Source: a phage. From it: DNA of 64,000 nt. Where the stretch lies: sequence record PV467749.1; one strand, 5' to 3'. The position numbers and the translations under genes are program-made. Positions 8,934-59,912 of this stretch are shown one piece after another (the stretch's first letter is position 1; the number at the start of each line of letters is the position of its first letter). The notes under the pieces were generated by a model, which searched no databases, was not told the DNA's origin, and was given only the letters and a program-made list of their open reading frames with translations.

Positions 8934-8997
8934 TAGATATTCCTCGATGGTTAATCATCCATCTCTTCGAGATGTCTGTTCGCTTCTAATACTACGT

Positions 8998-9026
8998 ATT
9001 CTACGCGAATGAATCATAACTGTCAA
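8998..9026 (-). promoter_or_regulatory. sigma-70-like promoter (TTGACA-17-TAGAAT)
   Basis: Minus strand TTGACA GTTATGATTCATTCGCG TAGAAT about 60 nt upstream of gene starting at 8933. Confidence 0.55.
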
Positions 9027-9559
9027 GGACTTTTAATATTGACGGGATTTGAGGAAGGGATTTTTCTTCCCCCCGCACGGAGGGAAATTTGACGCTGATG
9101 GTATCAGAGCTATTGCATTGAAGATTACTCATAACGAGTGCGAAAGCGGGTCATCCTGTTTCTCTCTACTTCAGTTTCATATGACGGTCTACACTTTTAA
9201 ACATAGTGTATCTTCATTAAGTATCTATGCAATCAAATACTTAATGTGAGTACTCAAATTTTGGACGCAACTTTCCTGTACAAAATTCGATAACTCTCCC
9301 TTAGATAATTCGTAAGGTGTTATCCTTATATGTCTATCGAGGAACCACCAGCTATCCTAACGTGGTTCTTTATACAGCCGCATTGCCGTGAGGGGTTCAA
9401 ACTATGCCCACATCTAACGGGTTTCTTTTGCTGTTCGCTACAATGAAAAGCTCATCTATCCTTTACATTTTCAAGTGAAGTAGGGGAAGATTGTCAGTAC
9501 CAGTACTGTCATTGTGATTGTACATAGATCATTGTATCACCATTAATAAATTTGTCCCA

Positions 9560-9586
9560 TAAAAAAAGGCTGACCGAAGTCAACCC
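9560..9586 (-). terminator. rho-independent terminator
   Basis: Same GGTTGAC-TTCG-GTCAGCC hairpin plus T7 run immediately after sigma-factor stop. Confidence 0.65.
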
Positions 9587-9593
9587 TTTAATC

Positions 9594-10559
9594 TTAAAAA
9601 TCTTCGAACTCATAACCTTTTGTCTTAACCATCTTACGCAGTCGTTCCATTGCTTCAGAGTACTTACGGTGCAATGAAGAACGAGCAGTCATGACCTTAC
9701 CCTTCTCATCTTCAAAACCACTCTCAATGATTTCTCGTAGCGTTTCTGGTTCAGAATAAGAACCAATACCATGTACACGTTCAATCAATTCACGGTCTTT
9801 GGCAGATAGGTTACTCATCATTTCTGCAATACTTTGTACCAGTGGGGTACTGACAGTTTCTACGCCTAAGTTGTAATCAGGTTCAACTGAAGTAACAATG
9901 TCAGATAATGTACTTTCTGAATCATTACTCATTTTCATATTCAATGCTACATAAGTGTTATTGTAAGTTAGACAATTCTTAACGTGTTGAATCTCAATAC
10001 CAGTCTCTTTTGACACCATCTCAGGAGTTGGGTATTTACCATGTTTCCTTTGATACTCTTCTACACAACGTTTCACATAAATGTTATTAACACTCATATA
10101 ACGTGGGAAATGCACTAGATAATTAGCATCCGCACTTTCGTTATAGATTGTCATGTACACAGTTGTTGTTGCATATGTAATGAACTTAACATTTTTGGTA
10201 GTGTCGAACGTATGAATTGCTCGCATTAAACCTTCAACACCATAAGAAATCTTATCTTCAAATGGGATAAAACATGTACACTTACGTGCAACACTTACTA
10301 CCATTGGATAGTTGTAGCGAACCAAAAGGTCAATGTTCTTTTCAACGTCAATACCATCACGCACTGCTTGGATGAGCATTTCATTCGTTATCCCTTTAGG
10401 GCGAGTTAAGCTGATACCTGTTTTTGGTTTCTCAAACTTGTGACCGTCATGTTCTTCTTCTTCGACGGAATCAAGAGCCTCTAATACGTTGACTTCTTCA
10501 CTAGCAAAACACTCATCCAGTACTTCTTCAGAAATTGCATTTAAATCAAGCTTTTTCAC
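9594..10559 (-). CDS. RNA polymerase sigma factor, sigma-70 family
   Basis: Region 2-like PMVVSVARK...EDKISYGVEGLMRAIHTFD...KFITYATTTVYMTI and region 4-like LSAKDRELIERVHGI...ETLREI...RKYSEAMERLRK. Confidence 0.65.
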   Translation of the reverse strand: MKKLDLNAISEEVLDECFASEEVNVLEALDSVEEEEHDGHKFEKPKTGISLTRPKGITNEMLIQAVRDGIDVEKNIDLLVRYNYPMVVSVARKCTCFIPFEDKISYGVEGLMRAIHTFDTTKNVKFITYATTTVYMTIYNESADANYLVHFPRYMSVNNIYVKRCVEEYQRKHGKYPTPEMVSKETGIEIQHVKNCLTYNNTYVALNMKMSNDSESTLSDIVTSVEPDYNLGVETVSTPLVQSIAEMMSNLSAKDRELIERVHGIGSYSEPETLREIIESGFEDEKGKVMTARSSLHRKYSEAMERLRKMVKTKGYEFEDF

Positions 10560-13951: not shown

Positions 13952-14412
13952 TCAAAACCTCTGTATTTTTCATATACTTCAACACATTCCATGATCTTGT
14001 CATCATCGGTCATGTCATAACCCTGAAGAAATTCTTCTTTATCAACCTTAGCAGCCATCATGTCATCATCCGAGATCCTCGAATCATAGAATGTGTACAT
14101 ATCTTTATAGTACTGCTTGTTGTGCTGTTCATCCTTAACCTTAGCATACCCAGCACAAAACGATGGCGATTTGACTACATTCCATTTATGCTTTTTGATA
14201 GGCTTATCATTAGCATGTTTTTCACGGTATTGCTGGCGGTAACGTTCACGCATCTCAGGCATGTATTCTTCAGCAGTACGTTTTGGTTGGGCTTTCCCTG
14301 TTCCAATCGTCTTGATTGTTTGACGCTGGTCTTCCGCATGTACTGGTGCAACAAAGCAGGAAGTACTGAATACAACAGCAGTGATTACTAGAAAGTGTTT
14401 AAACATAATCAA
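13948..14412 (-). CDS. secreted protein
   Basis: 154 aa, signal peptide MFKHFLVITAVVFSTSCFVAPVHA. Confidence 0.5.
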   Translation of the reverse strand: MIMFKHFLVITAVVFSTSCFVAPVHAEDQRQTIKTIGTGKAQPKRTAEEYMPEMRERYRQQYREKHANDKPIKKHKWNVVKSPSFCAGYAKVKDEQHNKQYYKDMYTFYDSRISDDDMMAAKVDKEEFLQGYDMTDDDKIMECVEVYEKYRGFE

Positions 14413-14636
14413 ACCTCTTTTACAATAATGTCGATTTGCACAGGAATAGCAATCTCACTGTTGCATGAATAAACATCTGCACAGTACTCAATATCTAGTA
14501 CTTCATAGTATTTTTCAAAGCCACAGATTGTAAGATTCAACGTAGCACCAATAGCTGGCAATACGGGAAAGGATAAAAATGCAATTTTAGAATTAAATTC
14601 TTCATTAATATCTTGATATACAGTGGCAGTAATCAT
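14409..14636 (-). CDS. hypothetical protein
   Basis: 75-aa ORF. Confidence 0.4.
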   Translation of the reverse strand: MITATVYQDINEEFNSKIAFLSFPVLPAIGATLNLTICGFEKYYEVLDIEYCADVYSCNSEIAIPVQIDIIVKEV

Positions 14637-15217
14637 AATGGTAACTCCTGAAGTGGTTTAATAATACTCAGTACTGGGTGATTTTCAATCATTGGTCGCC
14701 CTGGTACACCTGTTAGCACAACTGGAATCGAACTAATGTCTTTTACATAGTTGAATCCCTCAAATGTGAATTCTTGCTTTTTCTCATTATACAATACCCA
14801 CAGAATAACGTCAGCTTTTTTCTGTATATTTTTTAACTGTCGAGTACTAACACATGGACCAAAGTCTGTCCACGATTTGTACTTGATGCCTTTCACTTCA
14901 ATTCTTAAGTTGTTTACTTTGATATCACATTCACCATCACGACCATCACTTTGGAACGCTGGATCGATGTTAAGTGCAATACCTGAATAGTTTTCAATTT
15001 CATTAAAAAGTACAAATGAAGCATGTTCACATACCATACCAACAAAATGACTGTGAGCGTGATTAAACCCATACGGCGATTTACTTGCAGGTGCAAGAAT
15101 TTTATATCGTTCGGATTTCTCAATTGCTTTAGCCATAAAAGAATCAGCTTCATCTTTGTATAGCTTAACAGTCATTTTACCATTTTTCAGTACTAAACGT
15201 TTTTCTACAACACTCAT
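14633..15217 (-). CDS. hypothetical protein
   Basis: 194-aa ORF; D...E-x-K pattern (DGECDIKV) might indicate PD-(D/E)xK nuclease fold, unverified. Confidence 0.5.
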   Translation of the reverse strand: MSVVEKRLVLKNGKMTVKLYKDEADSFMAKAIEKSERYKILAPASKSPYGFNHAHSHFVGMVCEHASFVLFNEIENYSGIALNIDPAFQSDGRDGECDIKVNNLRIEVKGIKYKSWTDFGPCVSTRQLKNIQKKADVILWVLYNEKKQEFTFEGFNYVKDISSIPVVLTGVPGRPMIENHPVLSIIKPLQELPL

Positions 15218-15333
15218 AAAATCCCCTTATTGATATTCCATTTAAGTATACGTCAAAAACACAACTCAGTCAAGGTGCTTTTTTACCTATCTAGAATAAA
15301 TACGTTATAATAATTATACCAATGGAGGGATGA

Positions 15334-16491
15334 ATGTCAAGATCGATTGCTGCTGCTGGACAATATAAGTTCGGTGAATGTGGATATGTAGTCGATGGTG
15401 CAATTCTCAACGATGGGACTAAACTCAAAAATGTTCGAATCTATCGTCAGAGAAGCCATAGATTATATGATTTACTTGATCCTGTAAGTAATGTAATTTA
15501 TCGTAAAGTACAAATTACAACAAAGGATATACAAGGATATCAATTAAACTACAACAAAACTAATGACCAAATCCTAAGTGAAATAAGAAAGAACTCTTTT
15601 TTCGTAAGAGGATACTCAGATGCTAAACTTGAATCAGATCCTACTGGGTTTGTTTATAAGTTTCTTTTGCACAAAACAATTCTAGGTAGTTCACAAACAC
15701 TATATAATATGTACACCCCTGAATGCGGGATTATAGATAGAGATATAGACAACATCCTTATGTTCCCAACGTTCGTAGGTGATGATTTGGTAGGTGGTCG
15801 CCTATTCAACGCAGGTTCAGCCATTGATACAACTGGAATGCGTATTACCGTTATACTTCCTGACGGAACCGAGTACTTCACAACTGAAATAATTGATGAT
15901 GTTTTTAGTATTCCAGTTGATCCAATTACTCAATCCGGTAAAGGAGCCATCATACTCACATCTGACATATATAATACCAAAACTATTGAATTTGATATAC
16001 TAGAAAGCGGCGAAGATATTGACTTCGTTACTTCAGTACTTCTATCTCAGTTTGAGTACACGTCCGATGGTATGTACATGGCAACTGTACCAGCTACTGT
16101 GCATGAGCGTGGTGAGTATCTTGCTCTACAAGCATACAGTGGTGATTTATTCCAAATTGGAGTAGACCTCATTGTAGATCCTAGCGGTAATATTACTGTG
16201 TACCAAACTGATGATGCTCCAATCTCATTGAGTATTATTGGTAAAACCTTACACACCACTCCATATCACAACACGTATACTGATAGTGATTGGGTAGATG
16301 ATGGTGATTCTATGTACACACTGTCCATTCCTGCCAGTGAACATGGTAAAATCCTCCCACAAGTTCAAGTCTATGCTGAAGACAATCACGTTGTACTAAG
16401 TGAAGTTGAACTCGATGCAGATGATAATGTTGTATTAAAAGTTGTTGAACCATTTGGCTGTACTGTAGTCATTGTTGGTTATAACGCATAA
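15334..16491 (+). CDS. hypothetical protein (only substantial plus-strand gene)
   Basis: 385-aa ORF with RBS GGAGGG upstream, followed by bidirectional terminator. Confidence 0.6.
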   Translation: MSRSIAAAGQYKFGECGYVVDGAILNDGTKLKNVRIYRQRSHRLYDLLDPVSNVIYRKVQITTKDIQGYQLNYNKTNDQILSEIRKNSFFVRGYSDAKLESDPTGFVYKFLLHKTILGSSQTLYNMYTPECGIIDRDIDNILMFPTFVGDDLVGGRLFNAGSAIDTTGMRITVILPDGTEYFTTEIIDDVFSIPVDPITQSGKGAIILTSDIYNTKTIEFDILESGEDIDFVTSVLLSQFEYTSDGMYMATVPATVHERGEYLALQAYSGDLFQIGVDLIVDPSGNITVYQTDDAPISLSIIGKTLHTTPYHNTYTDSDWVDDGDSMYTLSIPASEHGKILPQVQVYAEDNHVVLSEVELDADDNVVLKVVEPFGCTVVIVGYNA

Positions 16492-16492
16492 C

Positions 16493-16528
16493 AAAAAAGC
16501 CACTACATTGTAGTGGCTTTTCTTTTAT
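16493..16528. terminator. bidirectional rho-independent terminator
   Basis: Hairpin AGCCACTACA-TTG-TAGTGGCT flanked by A-run and T-run between convergent genes. Confidence 0.65.
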
Positions 16529-16535
16529 CTATATC

Positions 16536-17351
16536 TTATTTGAAGTTTTTACGTAGAACTTCTTCCAGTGTTTGTTCTGGATTAGCAATTGCAACAGTGT
16601 AAATCAAATCTTTGAATGCCTGTACTGCTTGCTCAGTTGCTTCTTTGCCGAAGTTTGCTGAAATACTGCTAAACATATTTTCAGCACGTTCAGAACTAAT
16701 TAGTTCATTAACAAAGGTATCAATCTCTTTTTTGAGTTGACCAGTGGTCATGTCACCAATTAGCATTTCATCAACTTCTGGCTTTTCATCAGTACTAACA
16801 CGTACATTTGTAAAACCAAATACATCATCCAGTGAACCAAAACTATGTTTAACTTTAGTAACAATAGATGGCTTGGTGCGTTCTACTGGTTCTTCTTGTT
16901 TCTCTTCAGAATCAGTACTTGATTCATATGGCTTGGTGAACATATGAGTGAGAACGTCATCAATGTTTTTAATCATACCTTCAACACGTTCTTCAGTTTT
17001 CTTAGTAACTTCTTTGAATGCTTGCTCAAGTAGACGATCTTGAACTGTAGTGCGTACATCACCAACAACACCACGTAATTTTTCATTACACTGGTCTAGA
17101 ATTGATAATAGTTCACCACTTTTAATTTTGTCAACCAATAAATCAAGGTCAGATTTAACTTCAGGTTTCTTCTCAATACCATTTAGTAAGCTGTTAAGCT
17201 CTTGAGCACCCTCAATCGCTTCTTGATGACTGGTAAATTGAACAGGCACATCAACACCATCTAGAACGATATTGAGTACTTTACCATCTACATAAGCGTA
17301 AGAGTAAGATTCTTTTTTGAAGGAAATGGTTTTGAAGAAAATGTTGCTCAT
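16536..17351 (-). CDS. hypothetical protein
   Basis: 271-aa ORF, acidic/coiled-coil rich. Confidence 0.5.
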   Translation of the reverse strand: MSNIFFKTISFKKESYSYAYVDGKVLNIVLDGVDVPVQFTSHQEAIEGAQELNSLLNGIEKKPEVKSDLDLLVDKIKSGELLSILDQCNEKLRGVVGDVRTTVQDRLLEQAFKEVTKKTEERVEGMIKNIDDVLTHMFTKPYESSTDSEEKQEEPVERTKPSIVTKVKHSFGSLDDVFGFTNVRVSTDEKPEVDEMLIGDMTTGQLKKEIDTFVNELISSERAENMFSSISANFGKEATEQAVQAFKDLIYTVAIANPEQTLEEVLRKNFK

Positions 17352-17362
17352 ATTGTTACTCC

Positions 17363-17704
17363 TTATTTCCCAGATGCTGGGTATGTTTTAAACATATAGT
17401 GACATTGTACTAAATCATTGAATTTCAATCCAAAATCTTTAGTACCCATCAGTGTGTGATAAAAATAATGTGAAATCTCATTGGTTTCTGCATCTTTAAT
17501 ATAGATACCGAACTCGGTACAGCAGAACTGAACGACTTCATTATAACCTACTAATTTCGAAACAACAAGTACTTGATCATAAGAATTTGCATCAAAACGA
17601 ATGATATACATATCTTCAGTTTCAGGATGCACAATCATACCACCACGTGAAATGATTTTGACAAAATTCTCGCTCAAGTACTGAATTGTTGAACTCATGT
17701 CCAT
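17363..17704 (-). CDS. hypothetical protein
   Basis: 113-aa ORF. Confidence 0.45.
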   Translation of the reverse strand: MDMSSTIQYLSENFVKIISRGGMIVHPETEDMYIIRFDANSYDQVLVVSKLVGYNEVVQFCCTEFGIYIKDAETNEISHYFYHTLMGTKDFGLKFNDLVQCHYMFKTYPASGK

Positions 17705-21840: not shown

Positions 21841-22248
21841 TTATTTACGATTCCTTGCGGAGTTCTTGTTCCTTGCTCTGAATGTTGGTGTCATCGAATG
21901 ACAATTAGGGCAAAGGATTTTTAAATTTGGTAGGTCATTATTTGTAGCATCACCATCAATGTGCTCAACTTCTGTCAGTACTGCACCATCTATTGGATGA
22001 CGTTTATCCCATCCACACTCTTCACATGCAGTTCCGCGTGTTTCATGTAGATATCTTCTCACAAATGGACATAACTGTATAGTAATACCTTTATATCCTG
22101 GATGTTCACCGTTAAGCCATTTATCAACTTTCTGTTGATATTGTAGCTCTTGTTGACATGCAACACTACAATATTTTGTTTGACCCTTTCGAACCAATTC
22201 AATTTTACAACATGCACAATAACGTTTTTCTTTCATATAGTTCTCCAT
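21841..22248 (-). CDS. HNH endonuclease
   Basis: CxxC...CxxC zinc pairs and EVEHIDGDATNNDLPNLKILCPNCH; start set at Met21 because the longer ORF overlaps tRNA-Thr. Confidence 0.6.
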   Translation of the reverse strand: MENYMKEKRYCACCKIELVRKGQTKYCSVACQQELQYQQKVDKWLNGEHPGYKGITIQLCPFVRRYLHETRGTACEECGWDKRHPIDGAVLTEVEHIDGDATNNDLPNLKILCPNCHSMTPTFRARNKNSARNRK

Positions 22249-22425: not shown

Positions 22426-22467
<42 letters not shown>

Positions 22468-24052: not shown

Positions 24053-24080
24053 TTTAATTTCCTATTGTAATTTCGTTTTG

Positions 24081-24153
24081 CGACTCTGGAGGAACTCGAA
24101 TCCCCAACCAATTAATTAACAGTTAATCGCACCACCTATTGTGCTACAGAGTC
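24081..24153 (-). tRNA. tRNA-Asn (anticodon GTT)
   Basis: Acceptor GACTCTG/CAGAGTC, D-stem GCAC/GTGC, anticodon stem ATTAA/TTAAT with loop CTGTTAA, T-arm GGGGA-TTCGAGT-TCCTC. Confidence 0.7.
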
Positions 24154-24161
24154 ATAATTAT

Positions 24162-24368
24162 TTATAAGCCATGTCTTTTCAAAAATCTAGCAAACACATT
24201 TTTGGAAGCACCATAACTTTCATATATACTAACTTTTTTCTCACCATTATTCAAACGTTTTTTGATATCTTCTATGTTATCTTCTAAACGTTTTACGTTT
24301 GCAAATTTCTTAGATGGTATATTATTTTTGGTTCTATAATTCAGTACTGAACCTGAACTAATATTCAT
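24162..24368 (-). CDS. small putative DNA-binding protein
   Basis: 68 aa; C-terminal KVSIYESYGASKNVFARFLKR resembles homing-endonuclease-associated HTH (NUMOD-like), unverified. Confidence 0.35.
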   Translation of the reverse strand: MNISSGSVLNYRTKNNIPSKKFANVKRLEDNIEDIKKRLNNGEKKVSIYESYGASKNVFARFLKRHGL

Positions 24369-24389: not shown

Positions 24390-24694
24390 AGCCATCTGTG
24401 AGTCGAACACAGTACCTAACGATTCGTATAATCTATAGTTTTCACTATAGTACGGACTATATCATCATCCCATAGGGATGCCGGACGCTAATGATGTATT
24501 ACACAGTAAGATCGTACTGTACCATCTAGTCTCTGCACCTTCCCAATACGCTTATTGGGCTTGGCTCAGGATTGTCATCACCATTACGTGTTAAGATTTC
24601 CCTGAATTCATCCAGTTTTTCAATCACCATTACTGATGAAAGTCACCATTGTCGATGAGTCGTTTGCTCTAACCACCGTGAGCTAATGGCCCGA
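24390..24694 (-). tRNA. tRNA-Met/Ile (anticodon CAT) interrupted by group I intron
   Basis: 5' exon 24657..24694 (GGGCCAT TA GCTC..GAGC A AACGA CTCAT) and 3' exon 24390..24426 (AA TCGTT AGGTA CTGTG-TTCGACT-CACAG ATGGCTC A) join into a 75-nt cloverleaf. Confidence 0.7.
24427..24656 (-). other. group I intron (IC3-like) in tRNA anticodon loop
   Basis: Insertion after anticodon U36, last intron nt G; contains GAAGGTGCAGAGACTAGATGGTAC, near-identical to the P7/J8-7 core of known tRNA group I introns as I recall it. Confidence 0.65.
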
Positions 24695-24699
24695 TTTAG

Positions 24700-24938
<239 letters not shown>

Positions 24939-26649: not shown

Positions 26650-26750
<101 letters not shown>

Positions 26751-26754
26751 ATTT

Positions 26755-26870
<116 letters not shown>

Positions 26871-36450: not shown

Positions 36451-36981
36451 TTAATCGAGTATAGTAACTTCAATCAAACGAATTTCGATGAATTCGTTTT
36501 CAGTTTCCCATGATGAACCTAATTTCTTATTAAGTTCAGTTTTAACATCACTTTTAAATTTTCCCATAGTATTAGGAATAATTTGTTTGGTTAGTTTGTC
36601 ATAACCACAATAAAACATAGGTTTCTCCCTTCGAGATATTAGCTCAACAAAATCCTTTGGATATGCAGGTATATTATGCATCACTTCATGAATGCACTCA
36701 GTACTTGAATCTTGTACTTTGTACATTACATTAAGTTTACCTTTGAAAGTTCTAATCATATCAACAATAATACCTTTACCAGATTTAAGTAAAGTTCCAT
36801 TCTTTGTATGAGAACAATAGAATACCTCATCACCAATATTAGGATAGTACAAATTAAATTCTAATTCTTCCTTTGATGACTGACGTTGAAATTTCATTAC
36901 ACGTTCAGTATAGGTGGGGTAGTTCTTCATGTTCAAAAGAATATCTCTCTTAGTAAGTGTGATATAACTGGCATAGTCCAT
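36451..36981 (-). CDS. hypothetical protein
   Basis: 176-aa ORF directly downstream of methyltransferase; no Vsr-type motifs seen. Confidence 0.5.
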   Translation of the reverse strand: MDYASYITLTKRDILLNMKNYPTYTERVMKFQRQSSKEELEFNLYYPNIGDEVFYCSHTKNGTLLKSGKGIIVDMIRTFKGKLNVMYKVQDSSTECIHEVMHNIPAYPKDFVELISRREKPMFYCGYDKLTKQIIPNTMGKFKSDVKTELNKKLGSSWETENEFIEIRLIEVTILD

Positions 36982-38822
36982 CCATTCCCAAGCATTTTGT
37001 ATGCTTGTGTCTTACTAGACACTTTAAAGAAATCTACAGGAATACCCTGTAATTTACAACATTCTACTACACTTAAGTGTCTATAGTCAATATTTCTTTT
37101 ACCATTCTCCAATAGATATTGACGATTAATCGTTGGGTCACGAAACACCAACTGTCGTCTTGATTTATTAAAGTACTGGTTACAATCACCACCCTTAAAA
37201 TAGTTAGCATCTATACAGTACGAAGCGGTTCTGTCAGTGTACCAACCATCTTCAATGATATCTTGAAGTTTAGGGGCATTTGATAATGCAGGTGGTATAA
37301 AAAGCTTATCAGTACTGCACCAGTAGTATCTCTGCCTGAAGTGAGGCGTATAATGCTGGGAATTTATCAGTACTGGTGTCATCTCAAGAACACTATTAAT
37401 GTATTGCTTGAAATCTTCTTTCATCTTAACATTCTCAAAGAGAACTTTCAAGTTAGGATTTAAACTTTTTATGTGTTGGTAGATATCAACCATCGTGTGA
37501 AACAACATTCCACGTGGGTCATTTATACCACCCTGTTTACCAGCAACTGACCATGCTTGACAATTGTGAACAACTATATTATTTGCAGTGTACGTGTTAT
37601 CAACAGCAACTTCAAAATTATATACAGTTTTCCATTCTCCAGTATGAGTGCTAGTTTTTACACCTTTAACCCACGAATAATTTTTGTCATAAAAAGCTTC
37701 CTCTTTTTTCGGTTGGTCTTTTTTATATGACAAAACATAATAAGGTTTTTGGTTAACAACTCGATTTTCAATAACTTTGGTATTCTCTGGTTGAGTATAG
37801 CTTATATTGGAATGCCTTCCATATACGTTCATTATCAATTGTTGAATACCCAATACACAGTTTATTGATGTTGTAGTGAATTTATAACATCCACTATCAA
37901 TATGTCCATCAGCGTCAAAGTAACCATCAAGAAATGCTTTTTGGTTTTTTATGCATTCCGTGAATAGTTCTGGGTGTACTTGTTTGTTAGAAGCACCCTT
38001 TCCCATTTGTTCACAAAATTCAACCAGATCTTTTGAACATATATAAAATTTATATGAAGTTCTTTCTTTAACATAATTATATTTCATATTCATACCATCA
38101 AAACATGAAACTAATTCATTAAATTCGTCATGTGCACAACAGATGAAAACTCTATATTGGTAACTATTGGTTCTATTGTTACGTTTTACTTTATATGTCC
38201 ATCCATCACCCATAAAGCGACCCATAAAATACCAGAATTTTTCATCTTTCGTTGATTTGTTAGATTCAACTGATTTAACATTACACAGAAAATGGTCATA
38301 TGTCAAATCATGTGCCTCTACCCATTCTGGTTCAGAAAAATGACGTTCATATTGTCTAATGTTGTTATTCCACATAGACGTCATTTTTCTTGAATAAAAG
38401 GGATGATTATCGGTACATTCAATTGGAAGGTGACCTTGACCTGTAATAATACGAGTGGGAGCATTTTTAACACCAGTACTCAAAACTGGATGATATTTAC
38501 CAGTATGTGTCAGTACCATGTCACCAACTTGAATGTCTTTTATATCTTTATGACCTTTGTCTGTCATAATCATGGTTCCTGCTGGGAAGCATGGAAATCC
38601 ACCCATTAATAAATCTATTTTATCCCACTCAATATCCCATTCTCTCCATTTAGTTACATCACCCAATTGGGTGATATCAGGAAAGTTAGCTTGAGATTCA
38701 GCTATTGCGTACTTGTCAATTTCGGATGAATAATATTTTTCAACAGGGATACCAGCATCTTTTAATGCCATGTATCCAACACTCATCCCATTAAAAAGAG
38801 ATAGTACTCTGATAGGTTTCAT
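36933..38822 (-). CDS. DNA (cytosine-5)-methyltransferase, intein-containing
   Basis: Motif I LFNGMSVG; motif IV split as GGFP / CQAWSVAGK by a 343-aa insertion; motif VI LFENV downstream. Confidence 0.75.
   Translation of the reverse strand: MKPIRVLSLFNGMSVGYMALKDAGIPVEKYYSSEIDKYAIAESQANFPDITQLGDVTKWREWDIEWDKIDLLMGGFPCFPAGTMIMTDKGHKDIKDIQVGDMVLTHTGKYHPVLSTGVKNAPTRIITGQGHLPIECTDNHPFYSRKMTSMWNNNIRQYERHFSEPEWVEAHDLTYDHFLCNVKSVESNKSTKDEKFWYFMGRFMGDGWTYKVKRNNRTNSYQYRVFICCAHDEFNELVSCFDGMNMKYNYVKERTSYKFYICSKDLVEFCEQMGKGASNKQVHPELFTECIKNQKAFLDGYFDADGHIDSGCYKFTTTSINCVLGIQQLIMNVYGRHSNISYTQPENTKVIENRVVNQKPYYVLSYKKDQPKKEEAFYDKNYSWVKGVKTSTHTGEWKTVYNFEVAVDNTYTANNIVVHNCQAWSVAGKQGGINDPRGMLFHTMVDIYQHIKSLNPNLKVLFENVKMKEDFKQYINSVLEMTPVLINSQHYTPHFRQRYYWCSTDKLFIPPALSNAPKLQDIIEDGWYTDRTASYCIDANYFKGGDCNQYFNKSRRQLVFRDPTINRQYLLENGKRNIDYRHLSVVECCKLQGIPVDFFKVSSKTQAYKMLGNGWTMPVISHLLREIFF
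37563..38591 (-). mobile_element. intein with LAGLIDADG homing-endonuclease domain
   Basis: Starts CFPAGTMIMTDKG (block A), TDNHPF (block B), two LAGLIDADG-like motifs (FMGRFMGDGW, LDGYFDADGH), ends VVHN followed by Cys. Confidence 0.7.
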
Positions 38823-57437: not shown

Positions 57438-59861
57438 TCATCCTCCTAAATTGCTGTTTTGTAATGAAATCAAAAATGTATCATGAACGTAGTTTTCGAA
57501 TTCATGTGCAAAGAATCCAAACTCAACTCCTGTGATTTCAAACTCAACACCAACCATCTTACCATGTTCATTGTTCTGAAGTAAAGTGTTAAAGAATGCT
57601 TCACCCTTTCCTGGTGCACAATATGCAACTGGAATGATTGGCATAAATTTCTTTTCAACTCCATTTTCTTCGTATGGGTGATTCATGAAGCGAGGAACAG
57701 TGTCAAGCATCTCATCAGAAATTCCTGGTATAGCATCTACATACAAACCACGGTTTTGTAAATCAGTTGGGTCTTTCACAAGGTTAGTTGTGTCTTCGCC
57801 AATTGCTGCAAAAATATTTTGACGCAAGCCAAATATTTCACCGAGTGTTCCGTTATCAATTTGCGTGTAACTTCTTGGATTCTTAGAAACCGACACCAAT
57901 GAACCTGCGGGTAAAACTTCACGGTATAATATATCATACTGCAAGTTACCTTGGTTGTCAAGTGCTGACATTACTTTATAGTTGCCCATTACCATTCTAA
58001 ATTTTCCATCAGGTATAGTTGCACCAGATTGGTTTATGATATTTTCCCTAAGTACTTTTTTAATATCACTCAACGTAGTGTAAGTATAGTTCTGACTCAA
58101 AAAGTTTTCTTTTAATAGAATACGTGGTACTTTTTGTAACCCGTATCTATCATCTGATTGACGATGGAAAGCTTGTTTTGTAAATGATGGTGTACTAATA
58201 CACTTAAACCATTCACGTTCAAAATAAACAGAAGGTACAATATGTGCACTTAAGTAGTTTTGTCCAAAACCACGTACAATTTTCAGTTTAAATAACTTGG
58301 ACGCAACACCACCTTCAGTGTCATATGCTTTGATGTTGAATTCTAATTTTATATCATCATTTGCACTGAAATCTAAACTTTTTGCATATGCCGTCCCGAC
58401 CAAGAACCCATCTGCGGTGAGGTCCAAACCATATTTGCGAATATCATCAGGCCCACCATCTAATACATAAGATACCTGATTAGTACTGGTAGTTTGTATT
58501 TGTGGATAAGTACTGTGACCGAAATATTCACCCACATGAATACTACCTAAATCACTATCAGTTGTGAAGTCTATTGAGTTTCCTTCTTCTGCGTTCACTA
58601 GAACACGGAACATCTTCTCTTCACCTATAATATTCTCACCTAAGCTTGAATCATAATATCCTAAATCAATCCAATCTGAACTTTTAAACACTGGCTTTGT
58701 TTCACCTAGATCATATTCACCAGAGATTACATATGGATATACAACGTTATCTTTCAACTGATACAAATGATTAGGTAAAGGTTTATCACCATCAGCGTAT
58801 ATACCATCTACATTGTCTGGACATACCCACATTTGATATGCTTTGAAACGTTGGTTTATAGCGAAGCGGTCAGTGTCATAACTATATGTACTCAAAATAT
58901 CAACAATTTCAACTTTGAAATATGCATCACATGCATCAGAGTCATATAGGAATGTTTGCAGAAATTGTCCATTTGGGTTGAAAACCAATCCTGAATCTAG
59001 TAACTCCCCAGAGCTAGTTTGAATATTAACCTTAATTTCTTTATTAATACCAAATACAGGCCATATATTATCAATAGGACGTAGGATTGCATAATCATCA
59101 GTAATGTGGCGAGCAGGAACTTCTGCTGGGGTCATATCGAGTAGACGATACGCTGGATAAAATACTCTAGGAGATAGGTCAGTTGATGTATCCGTTCCTA
59201 AAATAAATGGACGACGACGACCAAATCCCTGTACAAATAAAGTACTGTTGGAACCGTATTCAATATCACCAATACAATATAATTTGTCATCATCACCGAT
59301 TTCGATTCCAGGAGTAACCCACACTTCCTGACTATCATATTCAATTGTTACTTCATTTGAACCAATTTCACCACTAGGGGAAATGTTACCATAGTACATA
59401 ACATTTACTGCTTGAAGATAGAAGTTAATCTGTTCAGAGTTGTTAAATGTACCATCATCTTTACAATGCAATTTAATAAAATAAACATCTTCGGTATTAG
59501 TGCTTGCCGATAGATCAAATTGAGTTTTATCAATTTTACATTTGTGCTTACCATTAATCAACTTGTTACCAGTAATACCTGATGATATAGGTGTGAGATT
59601 AGATTCATCATTACCAACATACACTGCGTAGTGATCTTCTGGTTGAAATACTGCATCAGAACTATCCAAACCCTGAATAGTTAGAATCATCTCTAAGTAT
59701 TCGTTTTCATTAAGTATATAACTATCATCCGTTGTGGTTTCTTTGTTGATACTCAAACGCACAAGAATGTCTTGTCCTTCTTGTATATATCGAGCATCGG
59801 CTTTTATATCCCATCTAGGGGTAAAAGTTGTCATTATAATTCTCCATAGCCAAGCTACCAT
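57438..59861 (-). CDS. large hypothetical protein (possibly virion structural)
   Basis: 807-aa ORF; no ATPase or nuclease motifs seen; likely start at Met10. Confidence 0.55.
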   Translation of the reverse strand: MVAWLWRIIMTTFTPRWDIKADARYIQEGQDILVRLSINKETTTDDSYILNENEYLEMILTIQGLDSSDAVFQPEDHYAVYVGNDESNLTPISSGITGNKLINGKHKCKIDKTQFDLSASTNTEDVYFIKLHCKDDGTFNNSEQINFYLQAVNVMYYGNISPSGEIGSNEVTIEYDSQEVWVTPGIEIGDDDKLYCIGDIEYGSNSTLFVQGFGRRRPFILGTDTSTDLSPRVFYPAYRLLDMTPAEVPARHITDDYAILRPIDNIWPVFGINKEIKVNIQTSSGELLDSGLVFNPNGQFLQTFLYDSDACDAYFKVEIVDILSTYSYDTDRFAINQRFKAYQMWVCPDNVDGIYADGDKPLPNHLYQLKDNVVYPYVISGEYDLGETKPVFKSSDWIDLGYYDSSLGENIIGEEKMFRVLVNAEEGNSIDFTTDSDLGSIHVGEYFGHSTYPQIQTTSTNQVSYVLDGGPDDIRKYGLDLTADGFLVGTAYAKSLDFSANDDIKLEFNIKAYDTEGGVASKLFKLKIVRGFGQNYLSAHIVPSVYFEREWFKCISTPSFTKQAFHRQSDDRYGLQKVPRILLKENFLSQNYTYTTLSDIKKVLRENIINQSGATIPDGKFRMVMGNYKVMSALDNQGNLQYDILYREVLPAGSLVSVSKNPRSYTQIDNGTLGEIFGLRQNIFAAIGEDTTNLVKDPTDLQNRGLYVDAIPGISDEMLDTVPRFMNHPYEENGVEKKFMPIIPVAYCAPGKGEAFFNTLLQNNEHGKMVGVEFEITGVEFGFFAHEFENYVHDTFLISLQNSNLGG

Positions 59862-59874
59862 TATCTATAGATTA

Positions 59875-59912
59875 TTTATATAAAGGACAAGGAAGACCCA
59901 TAAAGGTCTTCC
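59875..59912 (-). terminator. rho-independent terminator
   Basis: Hairpin GGAAGACC-TTTATG-GGTCTTCC then T-rich tract after gp52 stop. Confidence 0.5.

What the first reader, a model, noticed from the sequence alone, without database searches (positions are those of the whole stretch)
15334..16530. Single plus-strand gene island in an otherwise minus-strand genome segment
The 385-aa ORF is the only convincing plus-strand gene in 64 kb. It has its own RBS and weak promoter-like sequence and ends at a bidirectional terminator, so it is transcriptionally insulated, as expected for an independently acquired gene.
Basis: seen in the sequence. Interest (0 to 1): 0.4.

Follow-up and report, generated by a model that had tools for sequence, protein, structure and literature searches.

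The report
Conserved late virion gene, not an island
The lone plus-strand gene is real, but it is an old, conserved gene of this jumbo-phage group that encodes a virion protein with immunoglobulin-like domains, so it is ordinary rather than a recently acquired island.

Summary
ORF 15334-16491 (+, 385 aa) is the only credible plus-strand gene in the 64 kb. It has a Shine-Dalgarno sequence, its own promoter region, and a strong hairpin (16495-16521) shared with the converging minus-strand gene.

The window is an Asteriusvirus jumbo coliphage, 99% identical to fEgEco12 and EC.P1. The gene is present in the same inverted orientation, beside the same divergent 194-aa gene, in 121Q, GAP32, CBB, Yersinia fHe-Yen9-04 and Xanthomonas XaC1, at 33-75% protein identity. 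GC, GC3 and codon usage are typical, and no flanking repeats were found.

Orthologues were detected in purified virions by mass spectrometry (phAPEC6 gp077, CBB_496, GAP32 gp475). The AlphaFold2 model shows a conserved N-terminal domain of about 120-135 aa followed by three Ig-like domains.

A T4-type late-promoter motif, AATAAATAC, lies 31 nt upstream of the ATG and is conserved across genera. It was already listed for CBB as Porf_496. The surrounding region looks early: 35 near-consensus sigma-70 promoters on the minus strand against 0 on the plus strand.

Best reading: an ancestral late gene for a virion surface-decoration protein, transcriptionally isolated inside an early region. Its position on the virion and its actual expression timing remain untested. 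Interest is low.

The parts
15334..16491 (+). CDS of 385 aa: a virion structural protein, orthologue of 121Q gp155, phAPEC6 gp077, CBB_496 and GAP32 gp475
   Evidence: ORF. PHROG 10468 at E = 1.8e-156. 99.7% identical to fEgEco12 g507 'structural protein' and 75% to 121Q gp155 'structural protein, Ig-domain'. Orthologues found in virions by MS (PMC7247149 Table 1; PMC5259590 main-text table and supplement).
15334..15738 (+). N-terminal conserved domain (aa 1-135; core of about 120 aa, PHROG 33171 module), proposed as the virion-anchoring domain
15745..16488 (+). Three tandem Ig-like beta-sandwich domains (about aa 138-226, 230-306 and 308-385)
   Evidence: AF2 model has mean pLDDT 81.8, with 83-95 across these domains. 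Foldseek PDB top hits are tandem Ig proteins: SiiE BIg, Bap, filamin, fibronectin type III. Ig1 resembles repeats in giant multi-repeat proteins, and Ig2-3 are shared with about 290-aa paralogue-like proteins.
15324..15329 (+). Shine-Dalgarno sequence GGAGGG, 4 nt upstream of the ATG
   Evidence: Read directly from the sequence. GGAG-type sequences stand at the same place in all orthologous loci.
15295..15303 (+). T4-type late-promoter motif AATAAATAC, 31 nt upstream of the ATG
   Evidence: Identical 9-mer upstream of the orthologue in 121Q, GAP32, CBB, fHe-Yen9-04 and metagenomic L008. XaC1 has GGTAAATAC and L014 has GATAAATAC, while the rest of the spacer has diverged. CBB Table S7 lists Porf_496 ATAAATACTTTATA as a late-type promoter. 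WATAAATA is depleted in the window, 6 sites against 20.9 +/- 4.7 expected.
15313..15340 (-). Perfect sigma-70 promoter for the divergent minus-strand unit: TTGACA (15340-15335), 16 nt spacer, TG-extended TATAAT (15318-15313). The -35 hexamer overlaps the ATG of the plus gene.
   Evidence: 12 of 12 matches with TG. One of 35 minus-strand sites with at least 11 of 12 matches, against 0 on the plus strand.
15245..15273 (-). Second sigma-70-like promoter, TTGACT-17-TATACT (10 of 12 matches). Its -35 box (GTCAAG on the plus strand) is conserved in relatives.
   Evidence: CBB Table S5 lists the RpoD-like promoter Porf_497 for the orthologous divergent gene.
16495..16521 (.). Bidirectional intrinsic-terminator hairpin shared by the plus gene and the converging 271-aa minus gene
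   Evidence: 12-bp stem. Free energy -16.2 (+) and -20.0 (-) kcal/mol, z about -6. A hairpin stands at the same place in all relatives, with a different stem sequence in each genus.
14633..15217 (-). Divergent neighbour of 194 aa (PHROG 16175, function unknown). It forms a conserved pair with the plus gene.
   Evidence: 52-66% identical and adjacent in GAP32, CBB, fHe-Yen9-04, XaC1 and L008.
16536..17351 (-). Convergent neighbour of 271 aa (PHROG 14991 'virion structural protein'), orthologue of phAPEC6 gp078c
   Evidence: phAPEC6 gp078c was detected in virions with 4 peptides. 23% identical to GAP32_473, which is syntenic.

Best explanation
The gene is an ancestral, vertically inherited late gene of the Rak2-like jumbo myophages. 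The window comes from an Asteriusvirus close to fEgEco12.

It encodes a virion-associated protein with two parts. A conserved N-terminal domain of about 120-135 aa most likely docks it to the particle. Three faster-evolving Ig-like domains most likely project from the surface and make weak contacts with cell-surface or environmental glycans, as proposed for other phage Ig-like decoration proteins.

The gene lies inside an early region that host sigma-70 RNA polymerase transcribes on the minus strand. Three features make it a separate transcription unit: it is encoded on the other strand, it is preceded by a T4-type late-promoter motif (AATAAATAC), and it ends at a bidirectional terminator.

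In this phage the late motif overlaps the footprint of a perfect early promoter for the divergent gene, so early and late polymerase binding there are probably mutually exclusive.

Shown here: the gene, its conservation and synteny, the promoter, terminator and RBS anatomy, the domain architecture, and virion presence of orthologues (from published MS).

Inferred: late timing, which sigma factor acts, the anchoring role of the N-domain, the adhesive role of the Ig domains, and the position on the virion.
For: - Conservation and orientation.
- Typical composition. No flanking repeats.
- Family: PHROG 10468 at E = 1.8e-156.
- Virion presence of orthologues:
  - phAPEC6 gp077, 42.88 kDa, 10 unique peptides, 37.8% coverage (PMC7247149).
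  - CBB_496, 4 peptides, 17.5% coverage, with GAP32 and RaK2 counterparts marked structural (PMC5259590).
- Structure: AF2 pLDDT 81.8, with an N-domain plus three Ig-like domains. Foldseek hits are tandem Ig adhesins.
- The N-domain is more conserved than the Ig domains, about 55% against 27-38%. It recurs at the N-terminus of proteins of 124-1859 aa carrying variable Big_2-type arrays.
- Late motif: conserved across genera at a fixed distance from the ATG and published as Porf_496. WATAAATA is depleted, 6 against 20.9 +/- 4.7. Another of the six sites lies 38 nt upstream of the 798-aa virion protein gene (ATG at 59834).
- Early character of the surroundings: 35 against 0 near-consensus sigma-70 promoters. 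The homologous CBB region is described as early, and a gp55-like sigma factor is reported there.
- Terminator.
Against: - No transcript data exist for this phage group, so 'late' rests on motif and analogy.
- Inversion is not needed for late expression here. The 798-aa virion protein gene (57438-59834) has a TATAAATA motif and an upstream hairpin on the same minus strand as the early genes. The converging 271-aa virion protein gene is also minus-strand and has no obvious late motif.
- The Ig domains do not reach any Pfam threshold.
- The high-resolution phiKp24 capsid, from a related Klebsiella jumbo phage, could be built from the major capsid protein alone, with no decoration protein resolved (PMC9700779). 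A capsid location is therefore not favoured by that study.
- The gp55-like sigma gene was not checked in this genome, because it lies outside the window.
Confidence: 0.8

Rival explanations
1. One reading: a recently and independently acquired gene (a moron-like island) that brought its own promoter and terminator into a minus-strand genome segment.
For: It is a single inverted gene with its own RBS, promoter region and terminator. This is the typical layout of phage morons (established knowledge).
Against: The gene is present in the same orientation with the same divergent neighbour across at least four genera plus unclassified relatives, at 33-75% protein identity. GC, GC3 and codon usage are typical. 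No flanking repeats were found. The product is a virion component in three relatives. The promoter motif is the phage's own late type.
Confidence: 0.03
2. The gene is the same conserved late virion gene, but its inverted orientation is a frozen accident (an ancient inversion) with no regulatory role. The late promoter and terminator alone determine its expression.
For: Other virion protein genes in the same window lie on the minus strand, including one with its own TATAAATA motif and an upstream hairpin. Strand is therefore not required for late expression. phAPEC6 virion proteins are encoded on both strands, as shown by the 'c' suffixes in Table 1.
Against: The orientation is retained across genera in which the intergenic sequences have otherwise diverged. 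Family members in K64-1 and a metagenomic relative, set among different neighbours, are also inverted single genes or small inverted groups. That recurrence is more than one frozen accident would predict.
Confidence: 0.25
3. Location variant A: the protein is a capsid decoration bound at hexamers. It would resemble Hoc or pb10 in function and account for the unassigned protrusion at hexamer centres seen in phAPEC6.
For: phAPEC6 cryo-EM shows an unassigned fibrous density at the centre of each hexamer, and no known decoration homologue was found in that genome (PMC7247149). The size (385 aa) and the anchor-plus-three-Ig architecture resemble T4 Hoc, which has 376 aa, three Ig-like domains and an anchor (my recollection, not tested here). 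gp077 has fairly high MS coverage.
Against: In phiKp24 the hexamer centre is a pore made of C-terminal loops of the major capsid protein, and no decoration protein was modelled. No sequence or fold match to Hoc or pb10 was found. The conserved domain is N-terminal, not C-terminal as in Hoc.
Confidence: 0.3
4. Location variant B: the protein decorates the neck/collar or the tail sheath. Candidates are the 12 elongated proteins at the collar and distal tail of phAPEC6, or the base of the 'hairy' fibres.
For: phAPEC6 tail reconstruction shows unassigned elongated decoration proteins and fibre bases. Three Ig domains in a row should give a short rod of roughly 12-15 nm (my estimate, assuming about 4 nm per Ig domain). 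Relatives with the same N-domain are annotated 'major tail protein', although only through Big_2 similarity.
Against: The 119-nm hairs of CBB are far too long for a 385-aa Ig string, and GAP32, which is not reported as hairy, has the orthologue. The 'major tail protein' labels come from shared Ig domains, not from tube or sheath homology.
Confidence: 0.35

Closest known systems
PHROG 10468 virion structural proteins of Rak2-like jumbo phages (121Q gp155, phAPEC6 gp077, CBB_496 = FDG95_gp483, GAP32 gp475, fHe-Yen9-04 g482c)
   Same: Full-length homology at 33-99.7% identity. Same length (377-385 aa), same inverted orientation, same divergent neighbour, same late motif and same terminator position.
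   Different: Nothing of substance. This is the orthologue in an fEgEco12-like Asteriusvirus.
T4 Hoc (highly immunogenic outer capsid protein)
   Same: Similar size, and a string of three Ig-like domains plus one virion-binding domain. It is a late, dispensable-type surface decoration thought to mediate weak adhesion (established knowledge; architecture here).
   Different: No detectable sequence or fold relationship. The conserved putative anchor is N-terminal here and C-terminal in Hoc. Capsid location is unproven.
T5 pb10 decoration protein
   Same: An N-terminal binding domain followed by C-terminal Ig-like domain(s), which is the same polarity as here (established knowledge).
T4-type late transcription units (TATAAATA promoters read by gp55-type sigma)
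   Same: The motif AATAAATA(C) matches 7 of 8 consensus positions, sits at a suitable distance upstream of a virion protein gene, is avoided elsewhere in the sequence, and is accompanied by a gp55-like sigma reported in the group.
   Different: Timing and start site are unmeasured. gp33 and gp45 homologues were reported as not detected in CBB.
Phage morons / acquired gene islands
   Same: A single gene with its own promoter and terminator, placed against the local direction of transcription.
   Different: It is conserved and syntenic across genera, has native composition, uses the native late-promoter type, and its product is a structural component.

Membership tests
PHROG 10468 / Rak2-like 'virion structural protein' (121Q gp155 family) | Full-length sequence homology | tested here: met
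   E = 1.8e-156, residues 1-384 on profile positions 1-384. tblastn covers 99-100% of the query at 33-99.7% identity in 61 phage records.
PHROG 10468 / Rak2-like 'virion structural protein' (121Q gp155 family) | Conserved genomic position and orientation | tested here: met
   Inverted, next to the orthologous 194-aa gene, in 121Q, GAP32, CBB, fHe-Yen9-04, XaC1 and L008.
PHROG 10468 / Rak2-like 'virion structural protein' (121Q gp155 family) | Physical presence in the virion | not testable with these tools
   Shown by MS for orthologues only (phAPEC6 gp077, CBB_496, GAP32 gp475), not for this phage.
T4 Hoc family | Sequence or fold homology to Hoc | tested here: not met
   No PDB sequence match at E up to 10, with either a single sequence or a profile. 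Hoc is not among the top 50 Foldseek PDB hits.
T4 Hoc family | C-terminal capsid-binding domain following N-terminal Ig domains | tested here: not met
   The polarity is reversed. The conserved non-Ig domain is N-terminal and the Ig domains are C-terminal.
T4 Hoc family | Binding at the centre of capsid hexamers | not testable with these tools
   There is only an unassigned low-resolution density in phAPEC6, and phiKp24 argues against it.
Pfam Big_2 (PF02368) bacterial Ig-like domain proteins | Match to the Pfam model above the gathering threshold | tested here: not met
   No Pfam family at E up to 0.1 for this protein. Relatives that share the N-domain do carry Big_2.
Pfam Big_2 (PF02368) bacterial Ig-like domain proteins | Ig-like beta-sandwich fold | tested here: met
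   AF2 model with pLDDT of about 83-95 over three beta-sandwiches. Foldseek matches SiiE BIg, Bap, filamin and fibronectin type III with probability 0.96-1.0.
T4-type late promoter | TATAAATA-like motif at a suitable distance upstream of the gene | tested here: met
   AATAAATA at 15295-15302, 31 nt before the ATG.
T4-type late promoter | Motif conserved at orthologous loci while the flanks diverge | tested here: met
   AATAAATAC in 6 of 9 loci, and the TAAATAC core in 8 of 9. Published as Porf_496 in CBB.
T4-type late promoter | Late-only transcription by a gp55-type sigma | not testable with these tools
   A gp55-like sigma is reported for CBB. No transcriptomics for this group was found in the library.
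Acquired island / moron | Patchy distribution among relatives | tested here: not met
   The gene matched in all 62 related records that tblastn returned, with at least 80% coverage in 61 of them. Whether any related genome lacks it altogether was not checked.
Acquired island / moron | Atypical base composition or codon usage | tested here: not met
   GC z = 0.82, GC3 z = -0.57, codon-usage distance within the range of genes of similar length.
Acquired island / moron | Own promoter and terminator | tested here: met
   The promoter, however, is the phage's own late type.
Acquired island / moron | Flanking repeats or mobile-element genes | tested here: not met
   Only short chance-level repeats within 14900-16900. 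Both neighbours are conserved phage genes.

The most novel reading that the evidence does not exclude
The N-terminal module of about 120 aa (PHROG 33171; MGKPIAG...KQRS...FDLID motif) may be a so-far uncharacterised virion-docking adaptor with a new fold.

Rak2-like jumbo phages would use it to display interchangeable arrays of Ig-like domains, from one domain to proteins of 1859 aa. The genes that carry it would be kept as inverted late cassettes inside early regions. In this phage the late promoter physically overlaps an early promoter, which would give an early-to-late promoter-occlusion switch.
Probability: 0.2. Interest if true: 0.45.

Novelty: already known. Interest (0 to 1): 0.2.

Why it matters
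The main value is as a correction. A lone gene on the 'wrong' strand, with its own promoter and terminator, is not evidence of horizontal acquisition in these phages. It is how a late structural gene is housed inside an early region.

Three minor points could be useful to specialists:
- The N-terminal module that heads many Ig-array proteins has no solved structural counterpart and no assigned place on the virion, while phAPEC6 and CBB have unassigned surface densities and 'hairs'.
- The window shows very clean promoter grammar: 35 against 0 sigma-70 sites by strand, and strong avoidance of the late motif. This could guide annotation of transcription units in Asteriusvirus genomes.
- The overlapping early and late promoters at 15295-15340 are a testable case of promoter occlusion.

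Tried and rejected
- Paralogue within the window: none. tblastn of the protein against the window finds only the gene itself.
- P0014 as a same-genome paralogue. It is 41% identical and sits on a 356,444-bp contig, the same length as EC.P1. Its context is GAP32-like, with a methyltransferase and a 231-aa neighbour, so it is the orthologue in another phage.
- Pfam: no family at E up to 0.1.
- PDB by sequence or profile: nothing meaningful.
- Foldseek against PDB and BFVD: only generic tandem-Ig proteins, plus orthologues and paralogue-like proteins from the same phage group.
- Hoc or pb10 membership: rejected (see the membership tests).
- The protein as the long tail 'hairs': rejected on size (119-nm hairs against a 385-aa Ig string) and because the orthologue is present in GAP32.
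- The sigma-70-like plus-strand promoter TTTACC-18-TATAAT: not favoured, because its -35 is not conserved in relatives while AATAAATAC is.
- A late motif upstream of the converging 271-aa virion protein gene: none seen.
- Transcriptome data for Rak2-like enterobacterial phages: none found in the library.
- Locating the weaker second and third tblastn matches per genome: not done, because the tool lists only the best place per record.

Full report
**Identity of the window.** Megablast of 14400-17600 finds ten E. coli jumbo phages at 98.3-99.5% identity (EC.P1, fEgEco12, vB_Ec-M-J, BF17 and others). The 121Q/PBECO4 group matches at about 78%. fEgEco12 has been classified as a new species of the genus Asteriusvirus (PMC13070987). 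The window is therefore part of a Rak2-like jumbo myophage genome of about 350-380 kb.

**Observation.**
- ORF 15334-16491 (+) encodes 385 aa. It matches PHROG 10468 'virion structural protein' over its full length at E = 1.8e-156.
- All other plus-strand ORFs of at least 80 aa overlap longer minus-strand ORFs. None has a PHROG hit, whereas the two overlapping minus ORFs that were scanned do.
- The only other plus ORFs of at least 40 aa lying mostly outside minus ORFs are 42-77 aa, start with TTG or GTG, and have no Shine-Dalgarno sequence.
- In fEgEco12, g507 is the single opposite-strand CDS among g414-g522.
- The RBS (GGAGGG, 15324-15329) and the hairpin at 16495-16521 are real. The stem has 12 bp. 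Free energy is -16.2 kcal/mol on the plus strand and -20.0 kcal/mol on the minus strand, and no shuffle out of 200 folds as well.

**Test of 'independently acquired'.** That result is what is found.
- tblastn returns the protein in 62 phage records, 61 of them at full length. Hosts span Escherichia, Salmonella, Cronobacter, Pectobacterium, Erwinia, Serratia, Yersinia, Klebsiella and Xanthomonas.
- In each of 121Q, GAP32, CBB, fHe-Yen9-04, XaC1 and a metagenomic relative, the gene is inverted within a run of opposite-strand genes.
- Its divergent neighbour, the 194-aa gene at 14633-15217, is orthologous in all of them at 52-92% identity. That is better conserved than the gene itself.
- In K64-1 (Alcyoneusvirus) a 212-aa homologue is again a lone inverted gene with its own hairpin. 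In a K64-1-like metagenomic contig a 653-aa family member is inverted too, with two further inverted genes close by.
- Composition gives no hint of foreign origin. GC is 37.3% against 34.7 +/- 3.1% for the other genes. GC3 has z = -0.57. Codon-usage distance is 0.12, within the 0.107-0.176 seen for genes of 250-700 aa.
- No flanking repeats were found.

**What the gene encodes.**
- Orthologues were detected by mass spectrometry of purified virions. phAPEC6 gp077 (42.88 kDa) gave 10 unique peptides and 37.8% coverage (PMC7247149 Table 1). CBB_496 gave 4 peptides and 17.5% coverage, and its GAP32 and RaK2 counterparts are marked as structural (PMC5259590).
- An AlphaFold2 model built from 14 orthologues has mean pLDDT 81.8. 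It shows an N-terminal beta-rich domain (about residues 17-135) followed by three beta-sandwich domains (about 138-226, 230-306 and 308-385).
- Foldseek against the PDB returns tandem Ig-like proteins: SiiE BIg domains, Bap, filamin and fibronectin type III. No phage decoration protein of known position appears.
- Sequence and profile searches of the PDB find nothing.
- Against distant orthologues the N-domain is about 55% identical, while the Ig domains are 27-38% identical.
- A profile search of 1.84 billion representative proteins gives 170 hits at E up to 1e-3. Most of them share only profile positions 1-123, at their own N-terminus, and range from 124 to 1859 aa. Several carry multiple Big_2-type domains.
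- A second group of about 290-aa proteins shares only Ig2-Ig3.
- A conserved N-terminal module with variable, faster-evolving distal Ig arrays is what is expected of a surface protein anchored by its N-terminus. That reading is an inference.

**Transcription anatomy.**
- Near-consensus sigma-70 promoters (at least 11 of 12 matches) number 35 on the minus strand and 0 on the plus strand. This agrees with the published view that the homologous CBB region (CBB_390-546) is the early region.
- The intergenic spacer 15218-15333 holds two minus-strand promoters for the divergent gene. One is a perfect TG-extended promoter: TTGACA at 15340-15335, 16 nt, TATAAT at 15318-15313. The other is TTGACT-17-TATACT at 15273-15245.
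- On the plus strand, AATAAATAC (15295-15303) lies 31 nt before the ATG. The same 9-mer stands upstream of the orthologue in 121Q, GAP32, CBB, fHe-Yen9-04 and L008. XaC1 has GGTAAATAC and L014 has GATAAATAC. The rest of the spacer has diverged.
- The CBB authors list exactly this site (Porf_496, ATAAATACTTTATA) among 35 ATAAATA-type promoters found upstream of structural genes. They list Porf_497 as an RpoD-like promoter for the divergent gene. They compare the motif with the T4 late promoter TATAAATA and report a gp55-like sigma factor.
- In the window, WATAAATA is strongly avoided: 6 sites against 20.9 +/- 4.7 expected, and every one of the 100 shuffles had at least 6.
- Three of the six sites lie 23-38 nt upstream of a Shine-Dalgarno sequence plus ATG. 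These are this gene, the 798-aa virion protein gene (ATG at 59834), and a 131-aa HNH endonuclease gene (ATG at 22236).
- The terminator hairpin is conserved in position in all relatives but differs in stem sequence between genera.
- From the usual spacing rules, the early minus-strand start (near 15306) and the late plus-strand start (near 15309) are so close that the two polymerase footprints must overlap. Mutual exclusion of early and late initiation is therefore plausible, but it is untested.

**Limits of the explanation.**
- Late timing has not been measured. No transcriptome for this phage group was found.
- Inversion is not obligatory for late genes here. The 798-aa virion protein gene has a TATAAATA motif and an upstream hairpin on the minus strand. 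The converging 271-aa virion protein gene is also on the minus strand, without an evident late motif. The orientation could therefore be a retained accident, although its recurrence in K64-1-type genomes with different neighbours argues for some advantage.
- The position of the protein on the virion is open. phAPEC6 shows unassigned density at hexamer centres, 12 elongated proteins at the collar and distal tail, and fibre bases on the sheath. In phiKp24 the hexamer centre is formed by C-terminal loops of the major capsid protein, and no decoration protein was modelled. The 119-nm hairs of CBB are too long for this protein, and GAP32 carries the orthologue.

**Comparison with known systems.**
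- By membership, this is the orthologue of 121Q gp155, phAPEC6 gp077, CBB_496 and GAP32 gp475.
- By mode of action, it most resembles Ig-bearing decoration proteins such as T4 Hoc and T5 pb10. It is not a member of either family: no sequence or fold match was found, and the domain order is reversed relative to Hoc.
- Its promoter is of the T4 late type.
- It has the layout of a moron but not the history of one.

**Verdict.** The feature is real but ordinary and already described. It is annotated as a structural protein in GenBank, verified by MS in relatives, and its late promoter is listed in a published supplement. What remains of interest is the uncharacterised N-terminal docking module and the overlapping early and late promoters.

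Noticed in passing
window 24433-24747 (-): A complete group I intron (Rfam RF00028, 99.1 bits, E = 1.9e-24, model positions 1-253) lies in an ORF-poor stretch between tRNA-Asn (24080-24153) and tRNA-Ser (24847-24936). The gene it interrupts was not identified.
   Followed up: no
window 8934-9593: A stretch of about 660 nt has no ORF of at least 50 aa on the minus strand. It lies directly downstream of the phage sigma-factor gene (9594-10559, -) and a terminator-like hairpin. It has no Rfam hit at the gathering threshold. 121Q and fEgEco12 also leave a gap of about 660-720 nt unannotated downstream of their sigma-factor genes. It may be a non-coding RNA or a regulatory region.
   Followed up: partly
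whole window, both strands: Sigma-70 promoters show extreme strand asymmetry. There are 35 sites with at least 11 of 12 matches (11 of them perfect) on the minus strand and none on the plus strand.
   Followed up: yes
whole window; sites at 15295, 22260, 22439, 24159, 25120 and 59873: The T4-type late motif WATAAATA is depleted about 3.5-fold, with 6 sites against 20.9 +/- 4.7 expected. Two of the six sites precede tRNA genes: 24159-24166 lies just upstream of tRNA-Asn, and 22439-22446 lies about 70 nt upstream of tRNA-Thr. One precedes an HNH endonuclease gene (21841-22236).
   Followed up: partly
window 26672-26750 (-): A weak extra tRNA-like match (29.3 bits, right at the gathering score) lies next to tRNA-Ser (26755-26844). 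ARAGORN does not call it.
   Followed up: no
window 59834-59910 (-): The 798-aa virion protein gene most likely starts at 59834, where a Shine-Dalgarno sequence is present, rather than at 59861. It is preceded by a terminator-like hairpin and a TATAAATA motif. This makes it an insulated late gene on the same strand as the early genes.
   Followed up: partly
window 36933-38822 (-) against fEgEco12 g455: The window carries a 629-aa ORF where fEgEco12 annotates an 861-bp DNA methyltransferase gene (g455). Coordinates of the two phages drift apart by about 2 kb downstream of this point, so the locus appears to differ by an insertion or deletion.
   Followed up: no
proteins P0001, P0002, P0004 and P0008: Several near-identical homologues are deposited as 'Escherichia coli' proteins, and three of the four lie on contigs of 354-359 kb. 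These appear to be whole jumbo-phage genomes sitting in bacterial assemblies.
   Followed up: no
L014 8001-13074 (metagenomic K64-1-like contig): Three inverted genes lie in a run of opposite-strand metabolic genes that includes NAMPT, a cytidylyltransferase and dCMP deaminase. They are a 653-aa protein with the N-domain plus Big_2 repeats, a 344-aa protein, and a 221-aa Big_2 protein. The locus looks like a variable site for Ig-array surface proteins.
   Followed up: partly
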